A DNA stretch of 64,000 bases. Source: Anaerolineales bacterium (lineage in GTDB: Bacteria > Chloroflexota > Anaerolineae > Anaerolineales > UBA11858). Numbering within the stretch: position 1 is the first letter of the stretch; the number at the start of each line of letters is the position of its first letter. Shown here piece after piece: positions 42,592-64,000 of the stretch. The translations under genes were made by a program, and so were the position numbers. The DNA is taken from contig JBARSF010000058.1 of NCBI GenBank assembly GCA_049644605.1, positions 217,883-281,882 of the forward strand. The letters run 5' to 3'. The notes beneath the pieces are model-generated. The model had not been told where the DNA came from. It did no database searches and was given only the letters and a program-made list of their open reading frames with translations.

Positions 42592-43185
42592 ATGAATAAT
42601 AAAGAAACGATTATTCACGAGGCTCAAAAATTATTCTCGCTGAACGGGTATCTAAATACCGGGATAAATGAGATCATTGAAGCAGCGGGAACATCCAAAG
42701 GGGGGTTTTATAATCATTTTGCCAGTAAAGAAGAATTATTTCATGAGGTTCTGGATGTTTCACAAAAAATCTGGCGCCAGAAGGTTCTCTCTTCAATCTC
42801 TGATATACAAAGCCCAACCCAAAAAATTATCCAGATCCTGAATAATTATTGCAATAAATATCTCAAAGATGCCGAAAATTTTCCCGGCGGATGTATATTT
42901 ATTACGTTCTCAGTTGAATTGGACGATACTCGTCACCACCTGGTTAAAGAAGTCTACAAGGGATTTGAGGGTTTTAAGAAAATCCTGGTTGACCTTCTTG
43001 ATGAAGCCAAAGAACTACAAGAATTTCCCGAAGATCTGGACTCAAAGAAAGTAACCGATTGTATCTTCACAGGGATGTTGGGGGCATCAGTTCTTTATGG
43101 TGTCAATAAATCTACTAATACGCTGGATCGATCTATTAACTCATTGATTGAATATCTGGACTTGCTTAGTGATGGGAGGGGATGA
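42592..43185 (+). CDS. TetR/AcrR-family transcriptional regulator
   Basis: AQKLFSLNGYLNTGINEIIEAAGTSKGGFYNHFASKEEL. Confidence 0.9.
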   Translation: MNNKETIIHEAQKLFSLNGYLNTGINEIIEAAGTSKGGFYNHFASKEELFHEVLDVSQKIWRQKVLSSISDIQSPTQKIIQILNNYCNKYLKDAENFPGGCIFITFSVELDDTRHHLVKEVYKGFEGFKKILVDLLDEAKELQEFPEDLDSKKVTDCIFTGMLGASVLYGVNKSTNTLDRSINSLIEYLDLLSDGRG

Positions 43186-43337
43186 ACTTAAATCAAAACC
43201 CCTGAAATATTGGGAGAACTTTAGGTCTAATTAAGGAATAGAGAAGGAGGTGCAGGTTTAAGTAAAATGTTGAATGTATTATGGCATTACAACAATTGTC
43301 CTAACAGCATATGATTGATAAACCTAAGGAGGGTGTC

Positions 43338-45047
43338 GTGAAATATAAAAACTGGAAGTTTTTCTCAATTTTATTGGTCATTGCTTTGCTTATACTTTCT
43401 CTGGCGGCCTGTGCGCCGAAGACAGAAACCCCTGAGCCCCCCCCGGTAGAAGAAGCTGAAGCCCCAACAACCGAGGAGGAGACCGAAACCGAAGAAGAGG
43501 CAGAGCCAGTAGAGGAACCTGAACCCGCTGGCCCCGTGATCATGCGGGTTGGCACAACTAATATCTGGGATGGAAATAACCTTGGCGTTGAAGTCTCCGG
43601 CTGGCTTCCCTATCGATTGATCTTTGATTCAATTGTTGAGTTTGGACCTAGCGGCACCTTCATCCCAGGATTGGCGGAAAGCTGGTCCGTGGATGAGACG
43701 GGGTTGGTCTGGACATTCAAGATTCGAGATGGTGCGACATTCCATGACGGCACACCCTGCACAGCAGAGGAGATCGCCTGGAGCTTAACCTGGATGGAAG
43801 AGATTGGTTACGACAGCATAGCCTATATGTGGTCAGGCTTATTTGAGGAAGTTGTCGCCCTGGATGCCAATACGCTTCAAATTACCACAGTGTCCCCGAT
43901 AAGCTACATGGAATATGCCTTATCCTATTCCTTTGTTGTTCCTGAGGGTGTTTGGGGTGGAATGGCTGATCATGACGCGATGGCAGCTTACACAGGTGAG
44001 GATGCAACCACCGGCACCGGCCCATTCATTTATAACGAGTGGGTGCCGGATGAATATCTGATCCTGGATGCCAATGAGAATTACTGGGGCACGCCCCCCG
44101 GCTTTGATCAACTGATCTTCCAGCAGTATGCTACAGATGATGCCATGGTCAGTGCACTTCTGGCGGGTGAGATTGATGGCACCGCTTTTGCTCCAGCAAC
44201 CGCTATTGAAACAATTCAGGCTGATCCAAATACTGAAGCAACAGTCTTTGTGAGTTGGGGAGTTGAAGAGCTAACTTTAAACTCATACGCAGAAGGAACC
44301 CAGCCTGCAAGTTTAGGCGATCCAGCAGTACGGCTGGCAATGGAATACGCCATTGATCGCGATCAAATCAATGATGTTGTATTCTTAGGTTACTACACAC
44401 CTGCGACAACCATCTTTGCTCCAGTTCTGGGAGACTGGCATAATGATCAAATTGAGACCATCTCATTTGATTTAGCCATGGCCAACCAGACCCTGGATGA
44501 TGCGGGTTATGTTGATGGTGACGGGGATGGTTTTCGAGAATATTCGGATGGCACTCCCCTGCAGTACCGGTTCTTAATTGATGATTCCGCATCAAGCGCT
44601 CGACTGGCTGAAACCATCATGAACAATTTAGCCCAGGCAGGGATTGGAATTTCCATCGAGGCCGTGGATTACAACACTCAAATGTACAACGTTTTCTACT
44701 ATTATGACTACGACCTCACCTATTGGACCTGGGGGGCGGACCCAGATCCTGATTTCCTAGGAACAGTGTTCTCCTGTGATCAGCTCTGGTGGTGGAACGA
44801 TTCCGGATACTGCGATGAAGATTACGATGCCTTGTATGCGGCGTCTCGTGTTGCTGTTGATCGCACAGAAAGGGAAGATCTTGTTTGGAAAATGCAGGAA
44901 AAGATCTACAATGACCGCCCCTGGATTGTGCTGCTCTACAGTAGTGTAATGTCATCCTACCGATCCGATCGCTTCACTGGATTCAGTCCAGATGCCCGTT
45001 ATTTGTATGGCAAATGGTCAATTCTTCAGGTTGAACCAGTCCAATAA
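43338..45047 (+). CDS. ABC transporter substrate-binding lipoprotein, family 5 (peptide/nickel/opine type)
   Basis: GTG 43338 after AAGGAGG. Lipobox LAAC, acidic Glu/Pro linker, SBP_bac_5-like body (GLAESW.VDETG..W.F.IRDGATFHDG). Confidence 0.9.
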   Translation: MKYKNWKFFSILLVIALLILSLAACAPKTETPEPPPVEEAEAPTTEEETETEEEAEPVEEPEPAGPVIMRVGTTNIWDGNNLGVEVSGWLPYRLIFDSIVEFGPSGTFIPGLAESWSVDETGLVWTFKIRDGATFHDGTPCTAEEIAWSLTWMEEIGYDSIAYMWSGLFEEVVALDANTLQITTVSPISYMEYALSYSFVVPEGVWGGMADHDAMAAYTGEDATTGTGPFIYNEWVPDEYLILDANENYWGTPPGFDQLIFQQYATDDAMVSALLAGEIDGTAFAPATAIETIQADPNTEATVFVSWGVEELTLNSYAEGTQPASLGDPAVRLAMEYAIDRDQINDVVFLGYYTPATTIFAPVLGDWHNDQIETISFDLAMANQTLDDAGYVDGDGDGFREYSDGTPLQYRFLIDDSASSARLAETIMNNLAQAGIGISIEAVDYNTQMYNVFYYYDYDLTYWTWGADPDPDFLGTVFSCDQLWWWNDSGYCDEDYDALYAASRVAVDRTEREDLVWKMQEKIYNDRPWIVLLYSSVMSSYRSDRFTGFSPDARYLYGKWSILQVEPVQ

Positions 45048-45062
45048 TATTTCCATTCTCTG

Positions 45063-45113: not shown

Positions 45114-47237
45114 ATGCAGCGCAGTCGATACCTGCTTCGTAAATTCGTTCTATCAACGCTAACATTGATAGTGGTTATCGTCTTTAATTTTTTCCTCTTC
45201 CGAATTTTGCCCGGCGATCCTGCCAGAGCACTGGTAGGTGTTGGCAGAATGAAACCCGCTACGGTTGAAAATATCAGGCAGCAATTTGGTCTGGATAAAC
45301 CTATCTGGTTGAACGTAGAAAAAATTAAGGAGGGGGATTTTAGAGGAAGTGTTGATAGCCAATTCACTGCTTATGTTCGCAATTTGGCCAAGGGTAATCT
45401 CGGGGTCTCATTTGCAAACCGGTTGGAAGTGAAAGAAATCCTAATTGACCGGGTTTGGAAAACGGTTTTATTGTTATTTACCGGCGAGATAGTTGCCATA
45501 CTGCTGGGTTCATTACTTGGGATTATCGCCTCCTGGAGGCGGGGTTCCAAACTTGACCTGGGAATATTAATCTGGGGGTTGTTTACCTGGTCCATACCCA
45601 CATTTTTCTTTGGAATTATTTTAGTTATTCTTGCCCGGGGGCACCTGCCTACCGGAATGATGGTTACGGTGGGATTAAAACCCGAAGACGGTTGGGTGTA
45701 TTGGAAAGACGTGGCAAAACACCTGGTTTTACCCACCATCACCCTCGGCATAGGTTTTACCAGCGCCTATATGATGGTGATGCGCAGCAGCATCGTTGAG
45801 GTTCTCAGTGAAGACTATATCCTGACAGCAAAAGCAAAAGGACTCAATAATTTCCAGATATTGCGTGACCATGCACTAAAGAACGCAATGCTGCCCATGG
45901 TTACTTTGCTTGCTCTAAGTCTCGGCTACACTGTTGGCGGGGCTATCCAGGTTGAGACCGTCTTTTCCTGGCCTGGGATAGGCAGGTTGATTTTTGATTC
46001 AGTAGTTAAACAAGACTACCCGGTACTTCAGGGAGCTTTTTTACTTCTGGCTGTCAGTGTAATTGGGGCGAATTTTTTAGCCGATTTAATTTACACTCTG
46101 CTTGATCCCCGAGTCCAGTTGGAAACCCCTCCCCAAGTCCAGCAAACCAACAGGCTTTCCTCGCGGGTTATTAATTCTATCCGGGGATTGCCAAAGGCAA
46201 TCAGGAATTTCCAATCTGCATTTATCACCTGGATACTCAAAACTTACAGGGTCTTTCTGGTCCAAATGAGGCGTCTCCCGACGGCAGTTTTAAAAGGGGC
46301 AAAAACATTTTGGTTAACGTTAAAGCGCAAACCAATGGCATTATTTGGTACGGTTATGCTGCTGGTAATAGTTATTATGGCTGTATTTGCTCCACTTGTT
46401 GTCCCTTATACCGTGGAGGAGATGGCCACTCTGAAGGTGACAGCGGAAGATATTCTGGCCCCTCCCGATACCGAGCATATCCTTGGCCGAGATGATGCTG
46501 GGAAGGATGTCCTATCCCAACTCATTTATGGCGCTCGAATTTCACTCATTGTTGGATTCTCGGCATCTTTCATGTCCCTGATTATAGGCACGATTGTAGG
46601 TATGGTGTCGGGTTTCTTCGGAGGGAAGATAGATAATTTCCTGATGCGGCTGGTGGATATCTTAATGGTGATCCCAACTTTGCCGCTGATGTTGGTGATC
46701 ATTACTTTCTGGGGGCGTGGTTTGGACAAAATAATCCTTGTTATCGGCTTGTTATATTGGACTTATATGGCAAGGTTGGTGCGCTCCCAGGTAATTTCTA
46801 TTAAACAACGGCATTATATTCTCCGGGCAAAAGCGCTTGGCGCAAGCGATTTCCGCATCATTGTTCGCCATATTTTCCCCCAGGTCGTACCTTTAATTAT
46901 CGCGCAGGGAGTGTTGGATACGTCGACGGCAATTATTGCTGAGTCATCCCTCGCTTTCCTCGGGTTGGGAGATCCAACAAAGGTAAGCTGGGGAATGATG
47001 TTAAATTTTGCTTTTGCCAGGGCTATCAGCCAGGAAGCCTGGTGGTTTTTGCTGCCCCCGGGATTTTCGATTGTCTGGGTTAGTTTGTCCCTGGTTTTGA
47101 TTGGAACGGCCCTGGAAGAAGTATTTAACCCCAGACTTAAGACACACCACCTTTTTGATGCCAGGAAAATGTTGTCCATGTTTAAAATCGCCCAGCCGCT
47201 ACCCCAGGAAACACCTCCCGCGGAGCAGAACCAATGA
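45114..47237 (+). CDS. Fused ABC permease (DppB/OppB-like N-half + DppC/OppC-like C-half)
   Basis: 707 aa. N-terminus LRKFVLSTLTLIVVIVFNFFLFRILPGDP. Second half ILGRDDAGKDVLSQLIYGARISL... Two EAA-type permease cores. Confidence 0.85.
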   Translation: MQRSRYLLRKFVLSTLTLIVVIVFNFFLFRILPGDPARALVGVGRMKPATVENIRQQFGLDKPIWLNVEKIKEGDFRGSVDSQFTAYVRNLAKGNLGVSFANRLEVKEILIDRVWKTVLLLFTGEIVAILLGSLLGIIASWRRGSKLDLGILIWGLFTWSIPTFFFGIILVILARGHLPTGMMVTVGLKPEDGWVYWKDVAKHLVLPTITLGIGFTSAYMMVMRSSIVEVLSEDYILTAKAKGLNNFQILRDHALKNAMLPMVTLLALSLGYTVGGAIQVETVFSWPGIGRLIFDSVVKQDYPVLQGAFLLLAVSVIGANFLADLIYTLLDPRVQLETPPQVQQTNRLSSRVINSIRGLPKAIRNFQSAFITWILKTYRVFLVQMRRLPTAVLKGAKTFWLTLKRKPMALFGTVMLLVIVIMAVFAPLVVPYTVEEMATLKVTAEDILAPPDTEHILGRDDAGKDVLSQLIYGARISLIVGFSASFMSLIIGTIVGMVSGFFGGKIDNFLMRLVDILMVIPTLPLMLVIITFWGRGLDKIILVIGLLYWTYMARLVRSQVISIKQRHYILRAKALGASDFRIIVRHIFPQVVPLIIAQGVLDTSTAIIAESSLAFLGLGDPTKVSWGMMLNFAFARAISQEAWWFLLPPGFSIVWVSLSLVLIGTALEEVFNPRLKTHHLFDARKMLSMFKIAQPLPQETPPAEQNQ

Positions 47238-48208
47238 CAATCTTAGAAGTAAATAATCTCTCCGTTTCATATATGTGCGAGGTGGCAGAAAGTGAGATCG
47301 CCTTGAATGCCGTAGATGATATCAGTTTTAAGATAGAGCCAGGGCATTCACTGGGGCTGGTTGGGGAAAGCGGATGCGGAAAAACCACGGTAATGTTAGC
47401 CCTGATGCGTTTGCTCCCCGAAGCAGGCCGGATTGTTGCTGGGCAGGTGATTTTTAATAACCAGGACCTGATCCGGCTCAGTGAATCTGAAATGTGTGAC
47501 GTGCGTTGGGCGGAGATCGCGATGGTGTTTCAAAGCGCAATGAACTCTCTCAATCCGGTGAGAACGGTTGAAAGCCAGATTGTTGAAGCCTTGCTTAACC
47601 ACCGCCAGGTCGACAATAAAACCCAGGCTCGGAAACGGACTGCGGAATTGCTCAGCCTGGTAGGGATTGCCCCTGAGAGAGGCAAACAATATCCCCATCA
47701 ATACAGCGGCGGAATGCGGCAAAGGGCGATCATTGCGATGGCTTTATCCTGCAATCCAAAAGTTTTAATTGCAGACGAGCCTACTACTGCCCTTGACGTG
47801 ATGATCCAGGCTCAAATCACCGAATTACTTAAAAATCTTCAAAGGGAATTAGGTTTAACCCTAATCTTGGTTACCCACGACCTGGGTGTGGTTGCTGAAA
47901 TTTGTGATGATGTTTTTGTAATGTATGGTGGGAAAATGGCTGAATATGGAACCAGTGATGCCATATATAACATTGCCAAACATCCCTATACCAGAAGATT
48001 GTTAAAAGCTTTTCCGGATATTGATAATTTAGATGCGGACCTGGTATCTATTCCGGGGGTGCCCCCGCGTCTGGATGATTTACCAGAAGGGTGCCGGTTT
48101 AGTCCTCGCTGCCACCTTTGCAAGGAGTATTGCAAATACGATCAACCGCTGTTGACTAACTTGGGGAAGGATCATTTTGTCGCTTGCCATATGTATAGCC
48201 GGAAATAA
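47234..48208 (+). CDS. ABC transporter ATP-binding protein (DppD/OppD-like)
   Basis: GESGCGKT, YSGGMRQR, LLIADEPTTALD, and a C-terminal Cys-rich oligopeptide-type tail. Confidence 0.9.
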   Translation: MTILEVNNLSVSYMCEVAESEIALNAVDDISFKIEPGHSLGLVGESGCGKTTVMLALMRLLPEAGRIVAGQVIFNNQDLIRLSESEMCDVRWAEIAMVFQSAMNSLNPVRTVESQIVEALLNHRQVDNKTQARKRTAELLSLVGIAPERGKQYPHQYSGGMRQRAIIAMALSCNPKVLIADEPTTALDVMIQAQITELLKNLQRELGLTLILVTHDLGVVAEICDDVFVMYGGKMAEYGTSDAIYNIAKHPYTRRLLKAFPDIDNLDADLVSIPGVPPRLDDLPEGCRFSPRCHLCKEYCKYDQPLLTNLGKDHFVACHMYSRK

Positions 48209-48219
48209 GGTGGAACTTT

Positions 48220-50894: not shown

Positions 50895-51653
50895 ATGAGG
50901 TTAAAAGGAAAAACTGCATTAATTACTGGCGGCACTCTCGGGATTGGAAAGGCAACAGCTAAATTATTTGTTGAGCAGGGCGCAGATGTGTTTATCTGCG
51001 GTCGAAATGAAGAGGTTGGGGCGAAAGCAGCCGAAGAGCTTGGCTGCACTTACGACCGGGTTGATGTTTCTGATCGCCAAGGAGTTCAGGACTGGGTTGA
51101 GGGAATTGCCGGGAAGACCGGCAGAATCGATGTCCTGGTCAATAATGCCGGTATCACCCGGGACGGGCTCCTGGTAAAAGTAAAGGATGGAGAGTTGGTC
51201 AAACAACTTCCGGGAGAGGATTTTGACCTTGTCGTGTCTGTGAATTTAAAAGGCACCTTCAATTGCACGCAGGCTGTTGCTCCATATATGATCAACCAAG
51301 GGAGTGGATCAATAATCAATGCCTCATCTGTGGTGGGGCTGGATGGCAATTTTGGGCAAACAGTATATGTGGCAACAAAAGCCGGCATTGTGGGTATGAC
51401 TAAAGTCTGGGCTCGGGAGTTCGGTCGTTTTAATGTCAGGGTGAACGCGATTGCGCCAGGCTCTATTCAGACGGATATTCTGGAATCCATGCCTGAAAAA
51501 TACCTGACGGAACTAAAAAAGCATCAACCTTTGGGGCGTTTTGGGACACCAGAAGAAGTCGCTTCAGCGACACTATTCCTGGCGTCTGATGAAGCCAGTT
51601 TTGTATCAGGAGCGACTCTTCGCGTTGATGGAGCATTGGTTCTTGGCACCTAG
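50895..51653 (+). CDS. SDR-family oxidoreductase (FabG / 3-hydroxyacyl-CoA-dehydrogenase-like)
   Basis: TGGTLGIGKA, NNAG and YVATKAG. Confidence 0.9.
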   Translation: MRLKGKTALITGGTLGIGKATAKLFVEQGADVFICGRNEEVGAKAAEELGCTYDRVDVSDRQGVQDWVEGIAGKTGRIDVLVNNAGITRDGLLVKVKDGELVKQLPGEDFDLVVSVNLKGTFNCTQAVAPYMINQGSGSIINASSVVGLDGNFGQTVYVATKAGIVGMTKVWAREFGRFNVRVNAIAPGSIQTDILESMPEKYLTELKKHQPLGRFGTPEEVASATLFLASDEASFVSGATLRVDGALVLGT

Positions 51654-57344: not shown

Positions 57345-57421
57345 GCTTCGTATGGAGATCAACTCCTGTGAGCCGAAACCGGGGTTCATAATCGGATTGA
57401 TTTATGACTGGAGGGCAAAAT

Positions 57422-59464
57422 ATGTCATTTGAGCGTCTATTAAATCCGCAGACCATTGCCGCTTTTGGAGGTGCTCAAGCCCAGGAGGTTATCCGGCAGA
57501 GCGATAAGATGGGATACCAGGGGGAGATCTGGCCGGTCCATCCCAAGAAAACCGAAATCCTGGGGCGCACGGTCTACCGCTCGGTTGCGGATCTGCCAGG
57601 AAGCCCTGACGCTGCCTATGTAGGAGTTAATCGCTACCTTACTATCGACATTGTCAAAGAGCTTGCTGAGCGGAAGGCAGGCGGCGCAATTTGTTATGCC
57701 ACGGGTTTTATCGAGTCGGGAGAAGAAGGATCCAAACTCCAGGAACAGCTTTTAGAAGCTTCTGGTGACATGCCCCTGGTCGGTCCAAATTGTTACGGAT
57801 TGCTCAATTATCTTAATGGAGCCATGCTCTGGCCAGACCAGCAGGGTGGGCAGAGAGTTGATGAAGGAGTCGCGATCATTACCATGTCGTCAAATGTGGG
57901 CTTTAATCTCACCATGCAGCGTCGCGGCTTGCCAGTTGCCTTTATGGTATCACTGGGGAATAAACTAAAGTTTGATATCCATGATGCCATCCACATATTT
58001 GCCCACCAGGAACAGGTTACAGCAATCGGCTTATTCATGGAAACCTTGTCAGACCCGAAAGCTTTTGAAGAGGCAGTCAACTTTGCTCGCGAGTTAGGTA
58101 AACCCATCGTTGCCATCAAGACCGGTCAATCCGAAGTTGGGCAGAAGATAGTGGTTTCCCATACTGCATCATTGGCTGGTTCAGATGTCTTGTTCAGTGC
58201 TTTATTTGAAAGGCTCGGTGTGGCACGAGTCGATTCGTTGGAAGCATTCATGGAAGCCCTGAAGGTGCTGCATGTTCTTGGCCCATTAAATGGGGGCAAA
58301 GTTGGAGCCACGAGTACCTCGGGTGGTGACCTCACACTTCTTGCTGATGCCCTGGGTCCAAAACTTTCTATGCCACCAATTTCAGAAAAAACAGCCCAGC
58401 GTATCCGTAAAGTTGTTCACGAACGGGTAGTGGCTGCCAATCCATTGGATTACCAGATGTTCGACTGGAATGATGAAGATCAACAAGCCGAAAAATATAC
58501 AGCTTTTTTATCAGAAGGTTTTGATATCTCGCTGTGTTTACTGGATTACCCCAGAGATGATTATTGTGACCAATCGACCTGGGATGGGGCGGAGAGAGGT
58601 TTTGTCAGAGCACTCCAAAAGACAAATTCAAAGGGAGCGATACTAACAACTTTTGCAGACACAATTTCGGAAACGGTAGCCCAGCGATTAATGAAAGATG
58701 GTGTGGTAATGTTAGCGGGCATTAATGATGGAATTGCAGGTATTCGTGCGGCGGTTGATGTGGGAGCCGCTTGGAATCTGCCATATCCTCCACCATTACT
58801 CCAGCGTTGTGATTTAAAGGAATATGATTCTGTTTCTGTCTTAAATGAAGCTGAATCCAAGAAACTTCTTGCGAGTTTTGGTGTGCCAGTGCCGGAGGGG
58901 CGAGTCATTCGGGACGCTGTTGAGGCTGCTTCTGCAGCCGAGGAATTAGGATACCCGGTTGTGATTAAGGCAGTAGGAATCCCCCATAAAACTGAGGTTG
59001 GAGGCGTCAAGCTTAATCTCCATAATTCAGACCAGGTCTCTGCAGCTGTGAAAGGATTACTGGAACTCTCAGAGTCTTGCCTGATCGAAAAGATGGTTGA
59101 AGGTGTTGTGGCTGAGCTCATTGTTGGTGTGGCCTGTGATGAACAATTTGGTCCTTATCTTTTGGTAGGTGGCGGGGGAATTCTGGTTGAGTTAATGAAA
59201 GACAGCGCCTCCCTATTATTACCGATCACCAAAGAGCATGTGACCCAGGCCTTGAGTCAGCTGAAGTGTGCCCCCCTATTAAACGGTTTCCGGGGAGCTC
59301 CCCCGGCAGATATAGACGCAGTTATTGAAGTGATCATGGCAGTTGCCAGTATGGTTGAAGATGCCCCGTCTTCGATTAATGAGCTTGATATCAATCCTCT
59401 GATGGTCCGGGCCAAAGGACAAGGTGTGGTTGCGGCCGATGCGCTGATCAGCCTGAATGGTTAA
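57422..59464 (+). CDS. ADP-forming acyl-CoA synthetase (fused alpha/beta, acetate--CoA ligase family)
   Basis: ATG 57422 after GGAGGG. CoA-binding and succinyl-CoA-synthetase-like N-part. C-terminal ATP-grasp (EAESKKLLASFGVPVPEG...YPVVIKA). Confidence 0.85.
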   Translation: MSFERLLNPQTIAAFGGAQAQEVIRQSDKMGYQGEIWPVHPKKTEILGRTVYRSVADLPGSPDAAYVGVNRYLTIDIVKELAERKAGGAICYATGFIESGEEGSKLQEQLLEASGDMPLVGPNCYGLLNYLNGAMLWPDQQGGQRVDEGVAIITMSSNVGFNLTMQRRGLPVAFMVSLGNKLKFDIHDAIHIFAHQEQVTAIGLFMETLSDPKAFEEAVNFARELGKPIVAIKTGQSEVGQKIVVSHTASLAGSDVLFSALFERLGVARVDSLEAFMEALKVLHVLGPLNGGKVGATSTSGGDLTLLADALGPKLSMPPISEKTAQRIRKVVHERVVAANPLDYQMFDWNDEDQQAEKYTAFLSEGFDISLCLLDYPRDDYCDQSTWDGAERGFVRALQKTNSKGAILTTFADTISETVAQRLMKDGVVMLAGINDGIAGIRAAVDVGAAWNLPYPPPLLQRCDLKEYDSVSVLNEAESKKLLASFGVPVPEGRVIRDAVEAASAAEELGYPVVIKAVGIPHKTEVGGVKLNLHNSDQVSAAVKGLLELSESCLIEKMVEGVVAELIVGVACDEQFGPYLLVGGGGILVELMKDSASLLLPITKEHVTQALSQLKCAPLLNGFRGAPPADIDAVIEVIMAVASMVEDAPSSINELDINPLMVRAKGQGVVAADALISLNG

Positions 59465-59551
59465 TTTTCTATAATATCCACCCGCTGACCCGGTTATGAA
59501 TTAACAATCTGAATTGGTGGTAAAGGATTAAGAAGGAAAGGAGTTTTGGAT

Positions 59552-60322
59552 ATGATATCCGACGGCAATAAACTTGAAGACACCATCATTAAAAAGGCAA
59601 AAGAATTGGGCGCCTCGCTGGCAGGAATTGCCAGAGTTGAAGATTTAAAGCAAACCAAATCTTATGAAAGATATAAAAAAAGACCTTTTTACGAGGAGTA
59701 CGATCGAGATTCCCCGGATTACTTTGAATTTAAAGGATATAAATGGCGAGCTGGACACAAATCAGTCCTGGTTTGGGCTTTGGAACATCTCGCATCTGAG
59801 CCACATCTTGATTGGTGGAGCATGAAGGTTCCGGGTTTTACCCCGGGAAACCGGATTTTGAGAGCCCAGTCAAAACAGCTCCGGATCTGGCTGGAAGAGG
59901 AAATGTGCATTAATGCCCTTTCGCTGCCCTACCAGATTGAGTTTGGGGGCGTTTTCCTGAAAGATTCCGCCGCCCTGGCGGGCCTGGGAGTGATTGGAAA
60001 GCATAACATACTGGTCACACCGGAATATGGTTCGCGAGTCCGCTTGCGGGGGATTTCCATGGAGGCCGAACTTGAACCAACCGGCCCCCTGGATTTTGAT
60101 CCCTGCAGCAGCTGTGATATGCCCTGCCACAGTGCTTGTCCAAGAGATGCTTTCCAAAGCGGAAGCTTCGATCGAGCACTCTGCAAGCAAGAAAATGATT
60201 ACCGGGACGCCAATAAGGAAATCGTGGATGGTTCGATCATGGGAATTGATGAGCCCAGTGAGGTTTCCAAACCCTGCCGCTTCTGTGAACTTGCCTGCCC
60301 GGTTGGGCAGGGGAACTCTTAA
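59552..60322 (+). CDS. QueG/reductive-dehalogenase-superfamily-like protein with two 4Fe-4S motifs
   Basis: ATG 59552 after AAGGAAAGGAG. N-terminus AKELGASLAGIARVEDL. CSSCDMPCHSACP and CRFCELACP clusters. Confidence 0.65.
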   Translation: MISDGNKLEDTIIKKAKELGASLAGIARVEDLKQTKSYERYKKRPFYEEYDRDSPDYFEFKGYKWRAGHKSVLVWALEHLASEPHLDWWSMKVPGFTPGNRILRAQSKQLRIWLEEEMCINALSLPYQIEFGGVFLKDSAALAGLGVIGKHNILVTPEYGSRVRLRGISMEAELEPTGPLDFDPCSSCDMPCHSACPRDAFQSGSFDRALCKQENDYRDANKEIVDGSIMGIDEPSEVSKPCRFCELACPVGQGNS

Positions 60323-60569: not shown

Positions 60570-61871
60570 ATGCGGAATGAAAGATCTATGAGTTTAATTG
60601 AACGTGACCATGCTGCCGTGGCAGCTACGATCTACCGATACACAGATATAACCTTTGATCGCGGCGAGGGAGTTTATCTTTATGACCTTGAAGGTCGGGA
60701 ATATCTGGATTTTGTATCTGGTATTGCGACAATGAATGTAGGTCATGGCCACCCGGATGTGGTTGAAGCGATATGTGAACAGGCGCGTACACTAATTCAT
60801 GGTGCCTGTCATATTGGCTATATGGAGCCATACGTGGCAATGTTAGAGGCCTTAAAAACTGTCGCGCCTGGAGATCTAAAAGACGGAAAGGGAATTCTAG
60901 TAAACAGTGGATCTGAAGCTGTGGAGACGGGGATTAAACTCGCTCGCTATGTGACGAATCGCCCGATGATCCTGGCGTTTACGGACAGTTTCCACGGCCG
61001 ATCGATGGGAGCCCTGGCGCTGACTGCCAGCAATACCCTCTACCGCCAGCGTCTCCCCAGCTTGTTAACCGGGGTTCATCACACGCCTTACCCATATTGT
61101 TATCGCTGTCCATTGAAACATGCCTCAGTTGATGACTGTGATTTAGCGTGCTTAAATTTAGTTGAAAAAGCACTGGCGTCAGTGGTTCCTCCAGAAGACC
61201 TGGCTGGCATCATCATTGAACCCATCGCGGGAGAGGGAGGCTACATTGTACCTCCTGATGGCTTCCTGGCAGGGTTGCGCCAGATCTGCGACCGGGTTGG
61301 CGCGCTGCTAATCGCCGATGAAGTGCAGAGCGGCATGGGACGTACTGGAAAAATGTTCGCCGTCGAACATTGGGACATTGAACCGGACATCATATGCCTG
61401 GCTAAAGCCTTGGGCGGTGGGTTGCCGCTTGGGGCCGTTTTGGCAAAAGCTGAACTCATGGATCAATGGCCCCCAGCTGCTCAAGGCACGACCTTTGGCG
61501 GAAATCCAGTTGCCTGCCGGGCAGGCATAACCACACTCAACATCATCCAGGAACAGGGACTTGCGGCTCATGGAGAAGAGATTGGTAAGTTCATCCAGGC
61601 GCGATTTAATGAAACCAAAAGTGAGTTGCCGATCATCGGTGATGTAAGGGGTAAAGGCTTGATGGTTGCGGTCGAGCTGATCAACGCTGATGGCAGCCCC
61701 GCTGCAGAGATCATCAAAGAGGTCATCAAGGCTTTAGGAAAAAAAGGTATCGTGATGACAAAATGTGGTGCCAGCGCATTACGTTTTGCTCCCCCATTAA
61801 TTATCAAGAAAGAACAAGTGGAGGAAGGAGTAAATATTATCCTTGCGGAACTACGCAAACATCAATGGTAG
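60570..61871 (+). CDS. Class-III PLP aminotransferase (4-aminobutyrate/omega-amino-acid aminotransferase-like)
   Basis: SGSEAVE, ADEVQSGMGRTGKMF and PDIICLAKALGGG (PLP Lys). Alternative start at 60588. Confidence 0.9.
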   Translation: MRNERSMSLIERDHAAVAATIYRYTDITFDRGEGVYLYDLEGREYLDFVSGIATMNVGHGHPDVVEAICEQARTLIHGACHIGYMEPYVAMLEALKTVAPGDLKDGKGILVNSGSEAVETGIKLARYVTNRPMILAFTDSFHGRSMGALALTASNTLYRQRLPSLLTGVHHTPYPYCYRCPLKHASVDDCDLACLNLVEKALASVVPPEDLAGIIIEPIAGEGGYIVPPDGFLAGLRQICDRVGALLIADEVQSGMGRTGKMFAVEHWDIEPDIICLAKALGGGLPLGAVLAKAELMDQWPPAAQGTTFGGNPVACRAGITTLNIIQEQGLAAHGEEIGKFIQARFNETKSELPIIGDVRGKGLMVAVELINADGSPAAEIIKEVIKALGKKGIVMTKCGASALRFAPPLIIKKEQVEEGVNIILAELRKHQW

Positions 61872-62062: not shown

Positions 62063-62713
62063 ATGTCGACCGAAATATTTGAAAAATTGGCTCAAGCTGT
62101 GATCGACGGGGAAGATGAAGATGCTGTTGAACTTGCCAAACAGGCCCTGGATCAAGAACTTGACCCTCTTGCCTGCATCACCAATGGACTTACCAAGGGT
62201 ATTCAACAAGTAGGTGAGCTCTTTGCCAGCGGTGAATATTATTTACCAGAATTGATCATCGGTGCTGATGCGATGAAGGCTGCCCTGGAGATCCTGGAAC
62301 CGGCCTTGACGGGTGATCAGCAGCGCGAGATTGTTGGCCGGGTTGTTATCGGCACAGTTGAGGGGGATCTTCATGAGATTGGAAAAACCCTTGTTGGCAC
62401 GATGCTTACAGCAAATGGATTCAAAGTGATCGATATTGGTGTCGATAAATCTAATGAAGAGTTTGTTGCCGCCACAAAGGAAAATGACGCTACAATAGTA
62501 GGAGCTTCTGCATTACTAACAACGACCATGATTCAGCAGCAAAAGTTAATCGAAAGTTTAAAAGAAGCGGGACTTGGAAAACAAGTTAAGGTTATGGTGG
62601 GGGGGGCACCTGTGACCCAAAAATATGCAGAGCAGATTGGAGCAGATGGCTATGCCGAAGACGCCATTTCCGCTGTTGATCTAGCCTTTAGATTGGCAGA
62701 TGCGCCGGAATAA
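62063..62713 (+). CDS. Cobalamin-binding corrinoid protein (MtbC/MttC/MtgC-like)
   Basis: N-terminal helical cap domain. DLHEIGKTLVG (DxHxxG), SALLTTT and GGAPV. Confidence 0.9.
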   Translation: MSTEIFEKLAQAVIDGEDEDAVELAKQALDQELDPLACITNGLTKGIQQVGELFASGEYYLPELIIGADAMKAALEILEPALTGDQQREIVGRVVIGTVEGDLHEIGKTLVGTMLTANGFKVIDIGVDKSNEEFVAATKENDATIVGASALLTTTMIQQQKLIESLKEAGLGKQVKVMVGGAPVTQKYAEQIGADGYAEDAISAVDLAFRLADAPE

Positions 62714-62768
62714 TATAATTTACACAACGAGCCCTCGAAAATAAAATTCCACAAATGGAGAATATGTC

Positions 62769-64000
62769 ATGATCAAACTTGAAAAGCGCAAGGCCAGCAT
62801 CCAACCTATAAAGTCTAAATTAAAAATCAGTATTTTGGATGATCAAGAAATCAGCCAGATCAACCAGAACACCCGCGCTGTATTGGACGAAGTCGGAGTT
62901 AAATTTCCATCTGAGAAAGCACTGAAGATCTTTTCCGAAGTAGGCGCTGTAGTTGATTTTAACTCCCAAGTTGTTAAGATTCCAGCTGATTTACTGGATA
63001 AATATCTAAAAACATCACCCCGTACCTACACCATGGCAGGCCTCCGGCCTGATCTTGATGTTCATGTTGGCAGCGGCAAGGGCACCTATTTCTACTGCAG
63101 CGGCGAAGCCCCAAAAATTGTCGATTTTAATACCGGGGAGCGCCGCTTATCAGTTAAAGAGGATACTGCGAACCATGCCCGGATTGCCGATTATTTACCC
63201 ATCATCTCGCTGTTATGGCCATCAGTTAGCTCCAGTGATAAAAATGTGACTTCCCCACTCCACGGCCTGGAGGCTTGCTACAACAGTACGGAAAAACACG
63301 TGGAGTCTGAATCGGTGATGGATGAAGTTTCAGCCCGCTACGCTGTTGAAATGGCAATCGCCATCGCTGGAAGCGAGGAGAATCTGCGCGAGCGACCAAT
63401 ACTCTCACAGCTACTTTGCTGCATAGCTCCTCTGGCGCAGGACAAAGGGGGGATCGAAGCGGCAATGGTCTTTGCTGAGTATGGCATCCCGGTTGGATTA
63501 ATGTCAATGCCCACGCTGGGTTTAACAGCTCCACCACACGCGGCGGGATCCCTCACGATGGCAATGGCAGAAACCCTGAGCGGCATCATGCTCCTGCAGA
63601 TAATAAATCCAGGTGTAGGAAATTATATATCTGTTAATCCCGGGATTATTGATCCGCGAACGGGGGTCTATTTTATGGGATCTACCATCGCCCAACTTAC
63701 TAATGTTGCCGGGATTCAGCTGTCACACTCAAATGGAATCCCAGTGCTTGCCTGCCATTCCTTTGGAGGAAGTCAATATGAACTTGGCAACTGGCAAATT
63801 GGTTATGAGAACATCTTCTCCCACTTTCTGGGAGTCATGGCCGGGGCTGATATGTCCTTTGGTCCCAGCGGCATGTATGAAGCTGTCAGCCTGCTTGATC
63901 ACCAGCGTATTTTGTTTGACCGCGAAATCCTCCAAGTGATCGACAAGATTACCGATGGGATTGATGTCAACTCTAAAACTCTATCTTTTGATATGATCAA
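62769..64000 (+). CDS. MttB-family (trimethylamine-type) corrinoid methyltransferase, non-pyrrolysine; 3' end outside window
   Basis: Not in the supplied track (no stop in window). My translation from ATG 62769 (RBS GGAGA) is open for 410 codons. It reads MIKLEKRKASIQPIKSKLKISILDDQEISQINQNTRAVLDEVGVKFPSEKALKIFSEVGAVVDF... Confidence 0.85.
   Translation, partial: MIKLEKRKASIQPIKSKLKISILDDQEISQINQNTRAVLDEVGVKFPSEKALKIFSEVGAVVDFNSQVVKIPADLLDKYLKTSPRTYTMAGLRPDLDVHVGSGKGTYFYCSGEAPKIVDFNTGERRLSVKEDTANHARIADYLPIISLLWPSVSSSDKNVTSPLHGLEACYNSTEKHVESESVMDEVSARYAVEMAIAIAGSEENLRERPILSQLLCCIAPLAQDKGGIEAAMVFAEYGIPVGLMSMPTLGLTAPPHAAGSLTMAMAETLSGIMLLQIINPGVGNYISVNPGIIDPRTGVYFMGSTIAQLTNVAGIQLSHSNGIPVLACHSFGGSQYELGNWQIGYENIFSHFLGVMAGADMSFGPSGMYEAVSLLDHQRILFDREILQVIDKITDGIDVNSKTLSFDMI

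What the first reader, a model, noticed from the sequence alone, without database searches (positions are those of the whole stretch)
42592..64000. 21-kb co-directional supra-operon linking import, amide hydrolysis, omega-amino-acid transamination, an AbfD-type step, beta-oxidation-like enzymes, substrate-level phosphorylation and corrinoid-dependent demethylation
**Seen.** All of the following lie on the plus strand with short gaps:
- TetR and a family-5 ABC importer
- an AbfD-like enzyme and an SDR
- a cytoplasmic beta-lactamase-fold hydrolase
- thiolase, acyl-CoA dehydrogenase and EtfB/EtfA
- an ADP-forming acyl-CoA synthetase
- a QueG-like Fe-S protein
- a class-III aminotransferase
- a corrinoid protein
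- an MttB-family methyltransferase

An AMP-forming acyl-CoA synthetase is divergent from tetR.

**Established.** The clostridial 4-aminobutyrate fermentation runs through succinate semialdehyde, 4-hydroxybutyrate, 4-hydroxybutyryl-CoA and crotonyl-CoA to acetyl-CoA/butyryl-CoA. It uses an aminotransferase, AbfD, Bcd/Etf and thiolase. Non-Pyl MttB homologues demethylate quaternary amines such as glycine betaine, proline betaine, carnitine and gamma-butyrobetaine.

**Inference.** The locus may encode anaerobic catabolism of a C4 omega-amino or N-methylated amino compound, for example a GABA-containing amide or a butyrobetaine-type substrate. That substrate would be funnelled through a 4-hydroxybutyryl-CoA-like intermediate, with ATP gained via the ADP-forming synthetase. 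I saw no CoA-transferase, crotonase or dedicated 4-hydroxybutyrate dehydrogenase in the window, so the scheme is incomplete.
Basis: inference. Interest (0 to 1): 0.6.

Follow-up and report, generated by a model that had tools for sequence, protein, structure and literature searches.

The report
Conserved Anaerolineales methylamine and acyl-CoA catabolic island
The long same-strand gene run is real and recurs, reshuffled, in related marine Anaerolineales, so it probably breaks down an imported N-methylated amino or hydroxy acid compound without oxygen; its "AbfD" gene, however, is not a normal 4-hydroxybutyryl-CoA dehydratase but an uncharacterised Fe-S flavoprotein tied to an electron-transfer flavoprotein.

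Summary
The plus-strand run continues past nt 64000. MttB ends at 64265 and is followed by a 3-hydroxyacyl-CoA dehydrogenase, a PcaF-like thiolase and a family III CoA-transferase.

The host is an Anaerolineales bacterium. Orthologues (77-96% identity) of nearly all members recur together in other Anaerolineales contigs in at least three gene orders. They are found in few relatives, mostly the same ones. This supports functional coupling, not chance adjacency.

A perfect TetR operator palindrome at 42551-42564 is conserved upstream of tetR, or of ACAD-etfBA, in relatives.

The canonical GABA to 4-hydroxybutyryl-CoA to crotonyl-CoA route is not supported. The AbfD-family protein keeps three cluster cysteines. 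It has lost His292, Thr190, Glu257, Tyr296 and Glu455. In two diverged relatives it is fused to EtfA. The Etf is of the bifurcating type.

The MttB is a new non-pyrrolysine clade lacking all four glycine-betaine-binding residues of MtgB.

In this genome, class-III aminotransferases lie within 2 kb of MttB paralogues at four loci, with aldehyde:ferredoxin oxidoreductase genes at two of them. This supports a demethylate, transaminate, oxidise logic. The substrate remains unknown. The same Tyr-for-His AbfD variant was noted earlier in this scan on other genomes.

The parts
40872..42467 (-). AMP-forming acyl-CoA synthetase, divergent from tetR
   Evidence: Pfam AMP-binding plus AMP-binding_C. It passes NCBIfam PRK06187 (569.6 bits, cut-off 476). 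The same divergent position is kept in L007, L013 and G034.
42551..42564 (.). Probable TetR operator, perfect palindrome AGACCG-AC-CGGTCT between flanking ATATTATAA boxes
   Evidence: it is the only exact copy in the window; the same palindrome lies just upstream of tetR in L003, L006, L007 and L010 and in the genome's own paralogous cluster L015. A 1-mismatch copy lies about 90 bp upstream of ACAD in L014.
42592..43185 (+). TetR-family regulator (TetR_N plus TetR_C_13)
   Evidence: The best NCBIfam hits (ScbR, AcuR, FadR types) are all below cut-off. Orthologues head the array in L006, L007, L010, L013 and G034.
43311..45047 (+). Family-5 solute-binding lipoprotein of a Dpp/Opp/Nik-type ABC importer
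   Evidence: Pfam SBP_bac_5. The N-terminus looks like a lipoprotein signal. The best PDB hits (AapF, NikA, DppA) reach only 1e-31 to 1e-27, so the ligand is unknown.
45114..47237 (+). Fused DppB-DppC-type permease (707 aa)
   Evidence: Two BPD_transp_1 domains plus OppC_N. The same fusion occurs in L007 and L013.
47234..49269 (+). Two ABC ATPases (47234-48208 and 48220-49269)
   Evidence: ABC_tran plus oligo_HPY.
49395..50858 (+). Non-canonical AbfD-family Fe-S flavoprotein that is linked to Etf
   Evidence: HpaB_N plus HpaB. 1U8V at 1e-84 and 6VJR at 5e-82. Cys100, Cys105 and Cys299 are kept. H292Y, T190C, E257Q, Y296I and K300V are changed, and E455 falls in a gap. Subfamily-invariant extra Cys395, and Cys444 in at least 90%. 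EtfA fusions P0123 and P0135.
50895..51653 (+). Classical SDR (FabG / acetoacetyl-CoA reductase-like)
   Evidence: It accompanies the esterase in L003, L004, L006 and L016; in L007, L013 and G034 other genes separate the two.
51777..52985 (+). Cytoplasmic family VIII carboxylesterase (beta-lactamase fold)
   Evidence: Pfam Beta-lactamase. Best PDB hit is the EH7 family VIII esterase 7PP3 at 1.5e-100. S72-M-T-K and W352-G-G motifs present, no signal peptide.
53059..54252 (+). Thiolase 1 (acetoacetyl-CoA / BktB type)
54335..55471 (+). Short-chain (Bcd-type) acyl-CoA dehydrogenase
   Evidence: Best PDB hits are 5LNX, the Bcd of the C. difficile Bcd-Etf complex 5OL2_C, and 4L1F. Best NCBIfam hit is AcrC, below cut-off.
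55555..57344 (+). EtfB (55555-56352) and EtfA (56349-57344), bifurcating-type
   Evidence: The five best PDB hits for EtfB are chains of complexes I know as electron-bifurcating Etfs (6FAH CarD 9e-57, 5OL2, 4KPU, 7QH2 LctB, 7KOE). Non-bifurcating Etfs score 1e-25 to 1e-16.
57404..59464 (+). Fused alpha-beta ADP-forming (NDP-forming) acyl-CoA synthetase
   Evidence: CoA_binding_2 plus Succ_CoA_lig plus ATP-grasp_5. It matches the acetate-, 3-hydroxypropionate- and 4-hydroxybutyrate-CoA ligase models about equally, all far below cut-off.
59546..60322 (+). 258-aa 2x[4Fe-4S] ferredoxin-domain protein that accompanies the ADP-forming synthetase
   Evidence: Two Cys motifs, CSSCDMPCHSACP and CRFCELACP. 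Weak QueG and RDH matches. It belongs to an uncharacterised family found in Chloroflexota, Thermodesulfobacteriota and Bathyarchaeota. It lies next to the synthetase in L003, G034/L017 and probably L013 and L014, and one gene away in L018.
60570..61871 (+). Class-III (omega-)aminotransferase
   Evidence: Best PDB hits are 7VNO (P. horikoshii) and E. coli GabT. All NCBIfam hits are below cut-off. The order AT-corrinoid-MttB is kept in L006, L016 and L018.
62063..62713 (+). Corrinoid (B12-binding) protein, MtgC-like
   Evidence: B12-binding_2 plus B12-binding. It passes TIGR02370 (221.5 bits, cut-off 215.3).
62769..64000 (+). Non-pyrrolysine MttB-superfamily methyltransferase of a new clade; the gene ends at 64265 (L001:769-2265)
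   Evidence: Pfam MTTB. 498 aa with no in-frame stop. PDB hits only 1e-42 to 1e-30. MtgB residues Y97, R312, H348 and F356 are G, L, G and V here.

Best explanation
The array is a real accessory catabolic island of marine Anaerolineales that is inherited as a set. It is not a chance row of operons. It runs from the divergent acyl-CoA ligase at 40872 to the CoA-transferase ending at 67799, beyond the window.

Shown:
- The gene identities.
- Conservation of the set in several gene orders.
- A conserved TetR operator.
- A bifurcating-type Etf.
- A non-canonical AbfD-family protein that occurs fused to EtfA.
- A new MttB clade.
- Recurrent pairing of MttB with class-III aminotransferases, with AOR genes at two of those loci, in this genome.

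Inferred mechanism:
1. TetR releases the operator when a pathway intermediate, probably an acyl-CoA, appears.
2. A Dpp-type ABC system imports a conjugate. A cytoplasmic family VIII esterase splits it, and the SDR oxidises a hydroxyl group.
3. MttB moves a methyl group from a quaternary or N-methyl ammonium group to the corrinoid protein. The methyl group then passes to THF. The pterin methyltransferase and the RamA-type activase for this are encoded elsewhere in the genome.
4. The aminotransferase turns a primary omega-amino group into an aldehyde. The aldehyde is oxidised to the acid. Sister arrays carry an aldehyde:ferredoxin oxidoreductase for this step.
5. The acid is activated by the succinyl-CoA-type family III CoA-transferase, or by the reversible ADP-forming synthetase.
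6. The acyl-CoA is processed by the Bcd-type ACAD and bifurcating-type EtfBA, together with the Etf-linked AbfD-family Fe-S flavoprotein. It then passes to the 3-hydroxyacyl-CoA dehydrogenase and the thiolases.
7. ATP is gained from acyl-CoA through the ADP-forming synthetase. The 2x[4Fe-4S] protein serves as the low-potential electron carrier.

The carbon skeleton is most likely a C4-C6 omega-(methyl)amino or hydroxy acid. A route through a dicarboxylate is favoured over the 4-hydroxybutyryl-CoA route.
For: Gene identities.

The set is conserved while the order changes:
- L006, L016 and L018: tetR-AbfDl-SDR-esterase-thl-ACAD-etfBA-AOR-AT-corrinoid-MttB-HCDH-thl2-CoAT(-acdADP-..-FeS).
- G034, L007 and L013: ligase(-)|tetR-ABC-AbfDl-..-SDR-..-acdADP-FeS-esterase-thl-ACAD-etfBA-MttB.
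- L009, L010 and L014: the minimal core tetR / ACAD-etfBA-AbfDl.
- Window proteins are 76-96% identical to those of L018.

Phyletic pattern: among 60 relatives, close orthologues of the esterase, AbfDl and MttB were found only in G011, G016, G022 and G034. More distant esterase homologues (41-52%) occur in G046 and G047.

Operator.

Etf type.

EtfA-AbfDl fusion: present in two sequences that are 71% identical and share a conserved linker.

MttB-AT pairing: four of the seven class-III aminotransferase genes lie within 2 kb of an MttB gene on the same strand. An AOR orthologue follows the C35 aminotransferase directly, and an AOR paralogue lies between the two C17 MttB genes.

Dicarboxylate leaning: thl2 fits 3-oxoadipyl-CoA thiolase best (487 bits). 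The CoA-transferase fits succinyl-CoA:mesaconate, succinate-glutarate and SUGCT types best.

Trans-encoded methyl transfer: a pterin methyltransferase and a RACo/RamA activase are adjacent at C58:33794-35348.
Against: - There are no expression data.
- Only one operator copy exists in the window. Gaps of 247 and 191 nt precede the aminotransferase and corrinoid genes, so several transcripts are likely.
- All comparators are Anaerolineales, so shared ancestry inflates the apparent conservation.
- G061 and G062 carry parts of the set without the MttB orthologue. L003 and L004 carry GCV_T, and L003 also UROD, in its place.
- No array contains an enoyl-CoA hydratase, and the only stand-alone one in the genome is about 100 kb upstream of the array.
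- Family-5 binding proteins are not the usual importers of small betaines (my knowledge). The ligand cannot be read from the sequence.
- Known non-Pyl MttB enzymes remove one methyl group only (my knowledge). The resulting tertiary amine could not be transaminated. Either other demethylases or a second, primary amino group in the substrate must be assumed.
Confidence: 0.5

Rival explanations
1. Chance or ancestral juxtaposition. The run would be three or four independent units with no common substrate: a peptide/opine importer with esterase; a butyrate-type ACAD/Etf fermentation module with the ADP-forming synthetase; a methylotrophic corrinoid/MttB module; and a dicarboxylate beta-oxidation module. 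They appear together only because the compared genomes are close kin.
For: - The genome holds 14 MttB paralogues and 7 corrinoid proteins, so one lying beside any operon is not surprising.
- Gaps of 247 and 191 nt and a single operator copy.
- G061 and G062 have the core without the MttB orthologue.
- ACAD-etfBA lies 1.2 Mb from SDR-esterase in G062.
Against: - Membership is kept through at least three rearranged architectures. MttB lies directly after etfA in G034 and after the aminotransferase and corrinoid genes elsewhere.
- The members are found, or not found, mostly in the same relatives.
- MttB-AT pairs recur at four loci of this genome, two with an AOR gene nearby.
- The demethylase slot is always filled by some methyl-transfer gene: MttB, or GCV_T and UROD.
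Confidence: 0.25
2. This is clostridial-type 4-aminobutyrate fermentation, entered directly from GABA or from gamma-butyrobetaine after demethylation. It runs through succinate semialdehyde, 4-hydroxybutyrate and 4-hydroxybutyryl-CoA to crotonyl-CoA, with the AbfD-like protein as the dehydratase.
For: - Gene content resembles the pathway: a GabT-like aminotransferase, an SDR, a CoA-transferase, an AbfD-family protein, Bcd/Etf, Hbd and thiolases.
- The ADP-forming synthetase matches the thaumarchaeal 4-hydroxybutyrate-CoA ligase model as well as it matches the others.
Against: - Five of the eight residues named as cluster ligand or essential for dehydration are changed or missing. The changed pattern is invariant in the subfamily.
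- The EtfA fusion points to redox coupling.
- Sister arrays carry AOR beside the aminotransferase, which oxidises the aldehyde instead of reducing it.
- The CoA-transferase is a family III dicarboxylate type, not AbfT.
- No crotonase is present.
Confidence: 0.08
3. A CoA-dependent thiolytic carnitine route encoded by the tight corrinoid-MttB-HCDH-thiolase-CoA-transferase block. Carnitine is converted to carnitinyl-CoA by the CaiB-family transferase, then to 3-dehydrocarnitinyl-CoA, then to acetyl-CoA plus betainyl-CoA. MttB demethylates carnitine or the betaine product.
For: - Gaps of 13, 65 and 18 nt link MttB, HCDH, thl2 and the CoA-transferase. The block is kept in L016 and L018.
- The HCDH and the CoA-transferase give sub-threshold hits to carnitine dehydrogenase and CaiB models.
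- ACAD plus Etf parallels CaiA/FixAB (my knowledge).
Against: - The CoA-transferase is much closer to dicarboxylate transferases (1e-68 to 1e-61) than to CaiB (1e-33).
- The HCDH is closer to Hbd-type models.
- MttB lacks the carboxylate-binding and cation-pi residues of MtgB, so glycine betaine is an unlikely substrate.
- The conserved aminotransferase has no role in this route.
- G034 keeps MttB without this block.
Confidence: 0.1
4. DMSP, methylmercaptopropionate or acrylate catabolism. The sulfonium or thioether is demethylated, the acid is activated to its CoA ester, an acryloyl-CoA reductase (ACAD-EtfAB) makes propionyl-CoA, and ATP is gained through the ADP-forming synthetase.
For: - The best NCBIfam hits of ACAD, EtfB and EtfA include the Clostridium propionicum AcrC, AcrB and AcrA models. 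TetR hits AcuR. The divergent ligase hits the DmdB-type 3-(methylthio)propionyl-CoA ligase model. All are below cut-off.
- L003 and L004 carry a GCV_T (DmdA-family fold) gene inside the array.
Against: - Every one of these hits is far below its curated cut-off.
- The ACAD is as close or closer to Bcd and CarC in the PDB.
- As far as I know, no MttB-family member is known to use sulfonium compounds.
- The aminotransferase, the PcaF-like thiolase and the dicarboxylate CoA-transferase have no role in this route.
Confidence: 0.07

Closest known systems
Clostridium aminobutyricum 4-aminobutyrate fermentation (GabT, 4HbD, AbfT, AbfD, Bcd/EtfAB, Hbd, thiolase)
   Same: Both have an omega-aminotransferase, an AbfD-family FAD/Fe-S protein, a Bcd-type ACAD with bifurcating-type Etf, a 3-hydroxyacyl-CoA dehydrogenase, thiolases and ATP gained from acyl-CoA.
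   Different: - The AbfD homologue lacks His292, Thr190, Glu257, Tyr296 and Glu455, and relatives of it are fused to EtfA.
- There is no AbfT. A family III transferase stands in its place.
- There is no Fe-ADH-type 4-hydroxybutyrate dehydrogenase and no crotonase.
- Sister arrays carry AOR.
- This array adds an importer, an esterase and a corrinoid/MttB demethylase.
Non-pyrrolysine MttB systems: MtgB/MtgC (Desulfitobacterium hafniense) and MtpB, MtcB, MtyB (Eubacterium limosum)
   Same: An MttB-superfamily protein without pyrrolysine sits next to an MtgC-like corrinoid protein. The pterin methyltransferase and RamA-type activase are present in the genome.
   Different: - It is only remotely similar to the solved members (best E 1e-42).
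- None of the four glycine-betaine-binding residues of MtgB is kept.
- It sits among acyl-CoA metabolism genes and is paired with an aminotransferase. As far as I know, the described systems are not.
Electron-bifurcating Bcd-EtfAB (C. difficile 5OL2, A. fermentans 4KPU/4L1F) and caffeyl-CoA reductase CarCDE (6FAH)
   Same: The gene order is ACAD-etfB-etfA. EtfB and the ACAD find these complexes as their best solved relatives.
   Different: A second ACAD-fold protein of the AbfD family, with an Fe-S site, is genetically tied to the same Etf and fused to EtfA in relatives. As far as I know, no such Etf partner has been described.
Thaumarchaeal pair of ADP-forming 4-hydroxybutyrate-CoA ligase and 4-hydroxybutyryl-CoA dehydratase (Nitrosopumilus maritimus; the adjacency of the two genes is from memory)
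   Same: An ADP-forming acyl-CoA synthetase is associated with an AbfD-family enzyme. The NCBIfam 4-hydroxybutyrate-CoA ligase model hits the synthetase.
   Different: The hit lies far below cut-off and is no better than the acetate or 3-hydroxypropionate ligase models. The N. maritimus dehydratase keeps the canonical catalytic residues. The protein here does not.
Emergencia timonensis bbu/gbu cluster (gamma-butyrobetaine to trimethylamine through CoA-transferases and an ACAD-like lyase)
   Same: It is an anaerobic, CoA-dependent route for a quaternary omega-amino acid. It uses family III CoA-transferases and an ACAD-fold flavoenzyme that performs AbfD-like gamma-elimination chemistry.
   Different: That route releases trimethylamine and, as far as I recall, has no corrinoid/MttB, aminotransferase, Etf or AbfD-family gene. 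Homology to its proteins was not tested here.
Family VIII carboxylesterase EH7 (PDB 7PP3)
   Same: It is the best solved relative (1.5e-100). The S-x-x-K and W-x-G motifs are shared.
   Different: EH7 is a broad-range enzyme from a metagenome with no pathway context. The natural substrate of the window enzyme is unknown.

Membership tests
4-hydroxybutyryl-CoA dehydratase / vinylacetyl-CoA isomerase (AbfD, 4HBD) | HpaB/ACAD-like fold with full-length homology to AbfD | tested here: met
   HpaB_N plus HpaB. 1U8V at 1.1e-84 over residues 3-460 and 6VJR at 4.6e-82.
4-hydroxybutyryl-CoA dehydratase / vinylacetyl-CoA isomerase (AbfD, 4HBD) | [4Fe-4S] ligands Cys99, Cys103, Cys299 and His292 | tested here: not met
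   The three Cys are kept (C100, C105, C299). His292 is Tyr, and this is invariant in the subfamily. The ligand list comes from bioRxiv 10.1101/2020.02.05.935528.
4-hydroxybutyryl-CoA dehydratase / vinylacetyl-CoA isomerase (AbfD, 4HBD) | Residues needed for dehydration: Thr190, Glu257, Tyr296, Glu455 | tested here: not met
   They read Cys192, Gln257 and Ile296, and Glu455 falls in a 4-residue gap (VPG-CMHGGGSP).
Non-pyrrolysine MttB-superfamily quaternary amine methyltransferase | MTTB domain, no in-frame UAG, adjacent cognate corrinoid protein | tested here: met
   PF06253 at 1.2e-58 over residues 12-483. The ORF is 498 aa and uninterrupted. The corrinoid protein lies 55 nt upstream and passes TIGR02370.
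Glycine betaine methyltransferase MtgB | Glycine-betaine-binding residues Y97, F356 (cation-pi) and R312, H348 (carboxylate) | tested here: not met
   The alignment to 9YCE and 2QNE gives Gly, Val, Leu and Gly at these positions. The residue list comes from PMC13080624.
Methylamine methyltransferase system (MT1, corrinoid protein, MT2, activase) | Methylcorrinoid:THF (pterin-binding) methyltransferase and RamA/RACo activase present | tested here: met
   Neither is in the array. Both are in the genome, adjacent at C58:33794-34420 (PF00809) and C58:34572-35348 (PF14574), about 184 kb before the window start.
Electron-bifurcating Etf (group 2) | EtfB and EtfA closer to structurally proven bifurcating Etfs than to AMP-containing respiratory Etfs | tested here: met
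   EtfB scores 9e-57 to 1e-42 against 6FAH, 5OL2, 4KPU, 7QH2 and 7KOE, and 1e-25 to 1e-16 against 1O94, 1EFV, 1EFP and 5OW0. Binding of the second FAD and bifurcation itself cannot be tested here.
ADP-forming (NDP-forming) acyl-CoA synthetase | CoA-binding, succinyl-CoA-ligase flavodoxin and ATP-grasp domains in one chain | tested here: met
   PF13380 plus PF13607 plus PF13549. Substrate and physiological direction are not testable here: every equivalog model scores far below its cut-off.
Family VIII carboxylesterase | Beta-lactamase fold with an S-x-x-K nucleophile motif, a conserved Tyr and a C-terminal W-x-G | tested here: met
   PF00144. S72MTK and W352GG are present. The best solved relatives are family VIII esterases: EH7 7PP3, 4IVI carboxylesterase and Est-Y29.
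Epoxyqueuosine reductase QueG | Full-length match covering the cobalamin-binding N-terminal domain, above the TIGR00276 cut-off | tested here: not met
   Only residues 104-205 match, at 43.3 bits against a cut-off of 200. The protein is 258 aa and the model 337. The atlas places it among uncharacterised 2x[4Fe-4S] proteins.
4-aminobutyrate aminotransferase (GabT) | Score above the equivalog cut-off of the GabT models | tested here: not met
   TIGR00700 gives 382 bits against 506.65. The best model is PRK05769 at 513.5 against 552. The class-III fold is met (PF00202 at 9e-122). Amine specificity is not testable here.

The most novel reading that the evidence does not exclude
The Tyr292-type AbfD-family protein is not a dehydratase. 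It is a new kind of Etf partner: an ACAD-fold FAD/[4Fe-4S] acyl-CoA oxidoreductase docked to, and in some lineages fused with, a bifurcating-type EtfAB. Together with a new clade of non-pyrrolysine MttB methyltransferases, class-III aminotransferases and aldehyde:ferredoxin oxidoreductases, it would form an undescribed anaerobic route. By that route sediment Anaerolineales would fully consume quaternary omega-amino acids of the gamma-butyrobetaine, delta-valerobetaine or trimethyllysine type without releasing trimethylamine.
Probability: 0.2. Interest if true: 0.8.

Novelty: new variant of a known kind. Interest (0 to 1): 0.6.

Why it matters
From general knowledge: Anaerolineales are among the commonest bacteria of anoxic marine sediments, and quaternary amines are major osmolytes there and the main precursors of methylamines and so of methane. 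A route that demethylates these compounds and ferments the carbon skeleton would be a sink that bypasses trimethylamine. It would help explain why this genome carries 14 MttB paralogues.

Separately, an AbfD-family Fe-S flavoprotein that has lost the dehydratase residues and is fused to EtfA in relatives offers a concrete, testable candidate for a new Etf-dependent, possibly bifurcating, enzyme class. It also warns against counting such genes as markers of 4-hydroxybutyrate-type CO2 fixation or butyrate pathways in metagenomes.

Tried and rejected
- Complex prediction with EtfB, EtfA(190-331) and the AbfD-like protein returned no verdict (score 0.00, controls not run). It counts neither for nor against binding.
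- An Rfam scan of 40000-64000 at E <= 0.1 found nothing, so there is no cobalamin or other riboswitch in the 247-nt and 191-nt gaps.
- I searched for further copies of the TetR operator in front of the other modules. None was found in the window. The two 2-mismatch hits are within chance expectation.
- The sigma-70 promoter and terminator scans were at or near shuffle expectation and placed no + strand terminator in an intergenic gap. They are uninformative for a Chloroflexota genome.
- Literature searches for AbfD homologues in Anaerolineae, MttB in Anaerolineales and AbfD-Etf clusters found no description of this array.
- The binding protein's solved relatives (AapF, NikA, DppA and others at 1e-31 or weaker) do not identify a ligand.
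I do not favour this, because Cys295 is Ala in the 53-56% relatives. Cys395 is invariant, and Cys444 is kept in at least 90%. The geometry could not be measured with these tools.
- I considered NylB-type nylon-oligomer amidase for the hydrolase. I rejected it as the best guess because the closest solved relatives are family VIII esterases.

Full report
**Observation**

The genes from tetR onward, in order, with the ligase divergent upstream:
- tetR 42592-43185
- family-5 binding protein 43311-45047
- a fused DppB/DppC-type permease 45114-47237
- two ATPases, ending at 49269
- an HpaB/AbfD-family protein 49395-50858
- an SDR 50895-51653
- a beta-lactamase-fold hydrolase 51777-52985
- a thiolase 53059-54252
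- an ACAD 54335-55471
- etfB/etfA 55555-57344
- a fused ADP-forming acyl-CoA synthetase 57404-59464
- a 258-aa Fe-S protein 59546-60322
- a class-III aminotransferase 60570-61871
- a corrinoid protein 62063-62713
- an MttB-family gene from 62769
- an AMP-forming ligase 40872-42467, divergent from tetR

Intergenic gaps run from a 4-nt overlap to 247 nt.

**Beyond the window edge**

The window is G000:C58:217883-281882. On the same strand MttB ends at 64265, giving 498 aa with no internal stop. It is followed by three more genes:
- a 3-hydroxyacyl-CoA dehydrogenase (64279-65232, gap 13 nt)
- a thiolase that fits 3-oxoadipyl-CoA thiolase models best (65298-66554)
- a family III CoA-transferase (66573-67799)

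After a 250-nt gap come a frameshifted SMP-30-type lactonase, a weak DUF6144 match, a glycosyltransferase and a kinase, reaching about 72296.

A corrinoid:THF methyltransferase, a RamA-type activase and a crotonase are not downstream. The first two lie together at C58:33794-35348. The only stand-alone crotonase is at C58:165957-166703.

**Organism and conservation**

Relatives of the hydrolase come from Anaerolineales and Chloroflexota MAGs. Close homologues of the AbfD-like protein (over 120 clusters at 76-88% identity) and of the MttB (77-87%) are common in metagenomes. Several of them share the same contigs.

Gene neighbourhoods fall into recurring architectures:
- **L006, L016, L018:** tetR-AbfDl-SDR-esterase-thiolase-ACAD-etfBA-AOR-aminotransferase-corrinoid-MttB-HCDH-thiolase2-CoA-transferase. 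In L018 these are followed by the ADP-forming synthetase, a DUF2284 gene, the Fe-S protein and the same lactonase and kinase.
- **G034 (= L017), L007, L013:** ligase(-)|tetR-ABC-AbfDl, then extra genes (AMP-ligase, KASIII, alpha/beta-hydrolase, AcnX). In G034 these are followed by acdADP-FeS-esterase-thiolase-ACAD-etfBA-MttB; L007 goes straight on to esterase-ACAD-etfBA, and the L013 locus ends at acdADP-FeS.
- **L009, L010, L014:** the minimal core tetR / ACAD-etfBA-AbfDl. In L014 the synthetase and Fe-S genes lie nearby.
- **L003, L004:** a GCV_T gene, and in L003 also DUF169 plus a UROD-family methyltransferase, in place of MttB.

Window proteins are 76-96% identical to those of L018.

Among 60 relatives, close orthologues of the esterase, the AbfD-like protein and the MttB were found only in G011, G016, G022 and G034, all of them in the window's genus. 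More distant esterase homologues (41-52%) occur in G046 and G047. Several of the genomes without a match are incomplete, so these are 'not found', not 'absent'.

Membership kept through rearrangement, together with joint presence or absence, is the usual sign of functional coupling. All comparators are kin, which weakens the argument.

**Regulation**

The divergent ligase/tetR region holds a perfect palindrome, AGACCG-AC-CGGTCT (42551-42564), between two ATATTATAA boxes. It is the only exact copy in the window.

The same palindrome lies just upstream of tetR in L003, L006, L007 and L010, and in a paralogous cluster of the same genome. That cluster (L015) reads AcnX-amidohydrolase-ABC-TetR-esterase paralogue. 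A one-mismatch copy lies about 90 bp before ACAD-etfBA-AbfDl in L014.

This ties the TetR to the ACAD/Etf/AbfD-like core. Whether the distal genes in the window are read through from this promoter is unknown. The 247-nt and 191-nt gaps hold no Rfam element and may carry their own promoters.

**The 'AbfD-type step'**

The protein is a full-length AbfD homologue (1U8V 1e-84, 6VJR 5e-82). The alignment shows:
- Cys99, Cys103 and Cys299 are kept.
- His292 is Tyr, Thr190 is Cys, Glu257 is Gln, Tyr296 is Ile and Lys300 is Val.
- Glu455 falls in a gap (VPG-CMHGGGSP).

The N. maritimus 4HBD paper lists C99, C103, C299 and H292 as cluster ligands, and T190, E257, Y296 and E455 as needed for dehydration.

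In a survey of family representatives clustered at 50% identity, canonical enzymes read C-CTEHSYCK at ten marker positions. This subfamily reads CGCCQYCICV, or CGCCQYAICV in more distant members. Within the subfamily Tyr292, Ile296 and an inserted Cys395 are invariant, and Cys444 is nearly so.

Two relatives, P0123 and P0135, are 71% identical to each other and 53% and 49% identical to the window protein. Both are single polypeptides with a complete EtfA fused to the N-terminus through a conserved linker. The order etfB-etfA-AbfDl in the minimal arrays matches this fusion.

EtfB finds chains of complexes I know as bifurcating Etfs as its five best solved relatives, well ahead of respiratory Etfs. 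The ACAD is closest to Bcd-type enzymes.

I conclude that the protein fails the membership test for 4-hydroxybutyryl-CoA dehydratase. It most likely works with Etf, either as a second ACAD-fold redox enzyme or as an enzyme that needs Etf-delivered electrons. A complex prediction gave no verdict and is not used as evidence.

**The demethylase and the amine logic**

The MttB has the MTTB domain, no UAG and an MtgC-like corrinoid partner. It is only remotely similar to solved members (1e-42 to 1e-30). It carries Gly, Leu, Gly and Val where MtgB uses Y97, R312, H348 and F356 to hold glycine betaine. It therefore belongs to an uncharacterised clade.

The genome has 14 MttB paralogues and 7 class-III aminotransferases. 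Four of the seven aminotransferase genes lie 76-1761 nt from an MttB gene on the same strand, on C17, C35, C49 and in the window.

The orthologue of the AOR found in sister arrays sits directly after the C35 aminotransferase. Another AOR paralogue lies between the two C17 MttB genes.

A gap remains. From my knowledge, the described non-Pyl MttB enzymes remove one methyl group only. Either other paralogues continue the demethylation, or the substrates carry a second, primary amino group.

**Remaining parts**

- **Hydrolase:** a cytoplasmic family VIII carboxylesterase type. It has S72MTK and W352GG, and its best relative is EH7 (7PP3) at 1.5e-100.
- **CoA-transferase:** it resembles dicarboxylate transferases (4ED9, SUGCT, YfdE, formyl-CoA transferase) far more than CaiB.
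- **Thiolase 2:** it resembles PcaF.
- **ADP-forming synthetase:** it matches the acetate-, 3-hydroxypropionate- and 4-hydroxybutyrate-CoA ligase models equally and far below cut-off. It may conserve ATP or activate an acid.
- **'QueG-like' protein:** a member of an uncharacterised 2x[4Fe-4S] family. It accompanies the synthetase in L003, L017/G034 and L018, and probably in L013 and L014.

**Verdict**

A conserved catabolic island that links import, ester hydrolysis, corrinoid-dependent demethylation, omega-transamination, Etf-coupled acyl-CoA redox chemistry, thiolysis and an ADP-forming synthetase is well supported as a gene set. The specific GABA / 4-hydroxybutyryl-CoA route is not supported, and the substrate is unknown.

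I rate it a new variant of a known kind. It contains two uncharacterised enzyme clades that deserve experiments.

Noticed in passing
L001:6050-6912 (window-equivalent 68050-68912, beyond the window end): The SMP-30/gluconolactonase-type gene is split into two overlapping ORFs (161 aa and 229 aa), covering profile positions 1-41 and 48-245. This is a frameshift, a pseudogene or an assembly error. The orthologue in L018 is an intact 287-aa gene.
   Followed up: partly
G000:C70:18000-29210 (L015): A paralogous cluster in the same genome: AcnX large and small subunits, amidohydrolase, ATPase, TetR (50% identical), two permeases, ATPase, family-5 binding protein and an esterase paralogue (51%, cut by the contig end). 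Exactly the same AGACCGACCGGTCT palindrome lies at L015:3571, so the two loci may share regulation.
   Followed up: partly
G000:C35:141897-156209 and G000:C17:196082-210722: On C35, five MttB paralogues with a corrinoid protein are followed directly by a class-III aminotransferase and an aldehyde:ferredoxin oxidoreductase. That AOR is 63% identical to the AOR of sister arrays. On C17, two MttB genes, an AOR paralogue and an aminotransferase lie together. MttB-aminotransferase-AOR is a recurring theme in this genome.
   Followed up: partly
L004:11181-12410: A 409-aa ORF joins a GCV_T N-terminal part (residues 36-243) to a thiolase C-terminal domain (292-406). It lies between the esterase and a CoA-transferase 79% identical to the window's. 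This looks like a deletion scar or a MAG assembly chimera, and it hints at an ancestral order esterase-GCV_T-...-thiolase2-CoA-transferase.
   Followed up: no
L003:2696-7811: A variant of the array in another Anaerolineales MAG carries DUF169, a UROD-family (MT1/MT2-type) methyltransferase and a GCV_T gene where the window has thiolase 1 and MttB. A methyl-transfer function seems to be a constant of the set, while its enzyme family varies.
   Followed up: no
L023:2095-6462: A 46%-identical member of the Tyr292 AbfD subfamily (P0124) is the last gene of a four-subunit 2-oxoacid:ferredoxin oxidoreductase operon. This is another link between the subfamily and low-potential electron transfer and acyl-CoA formation.
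   Followed up: no
   Followed up: no
window 37111-40846 and L007:1-1458, L013:1-1386: The sulfatase-fold gene upstream of the divergent acyl-CoA ligase keeps the same position in L007 and L013. The conserved neighbourhood may therefore extend leftwards beyond the reported start.
   Followed up: no
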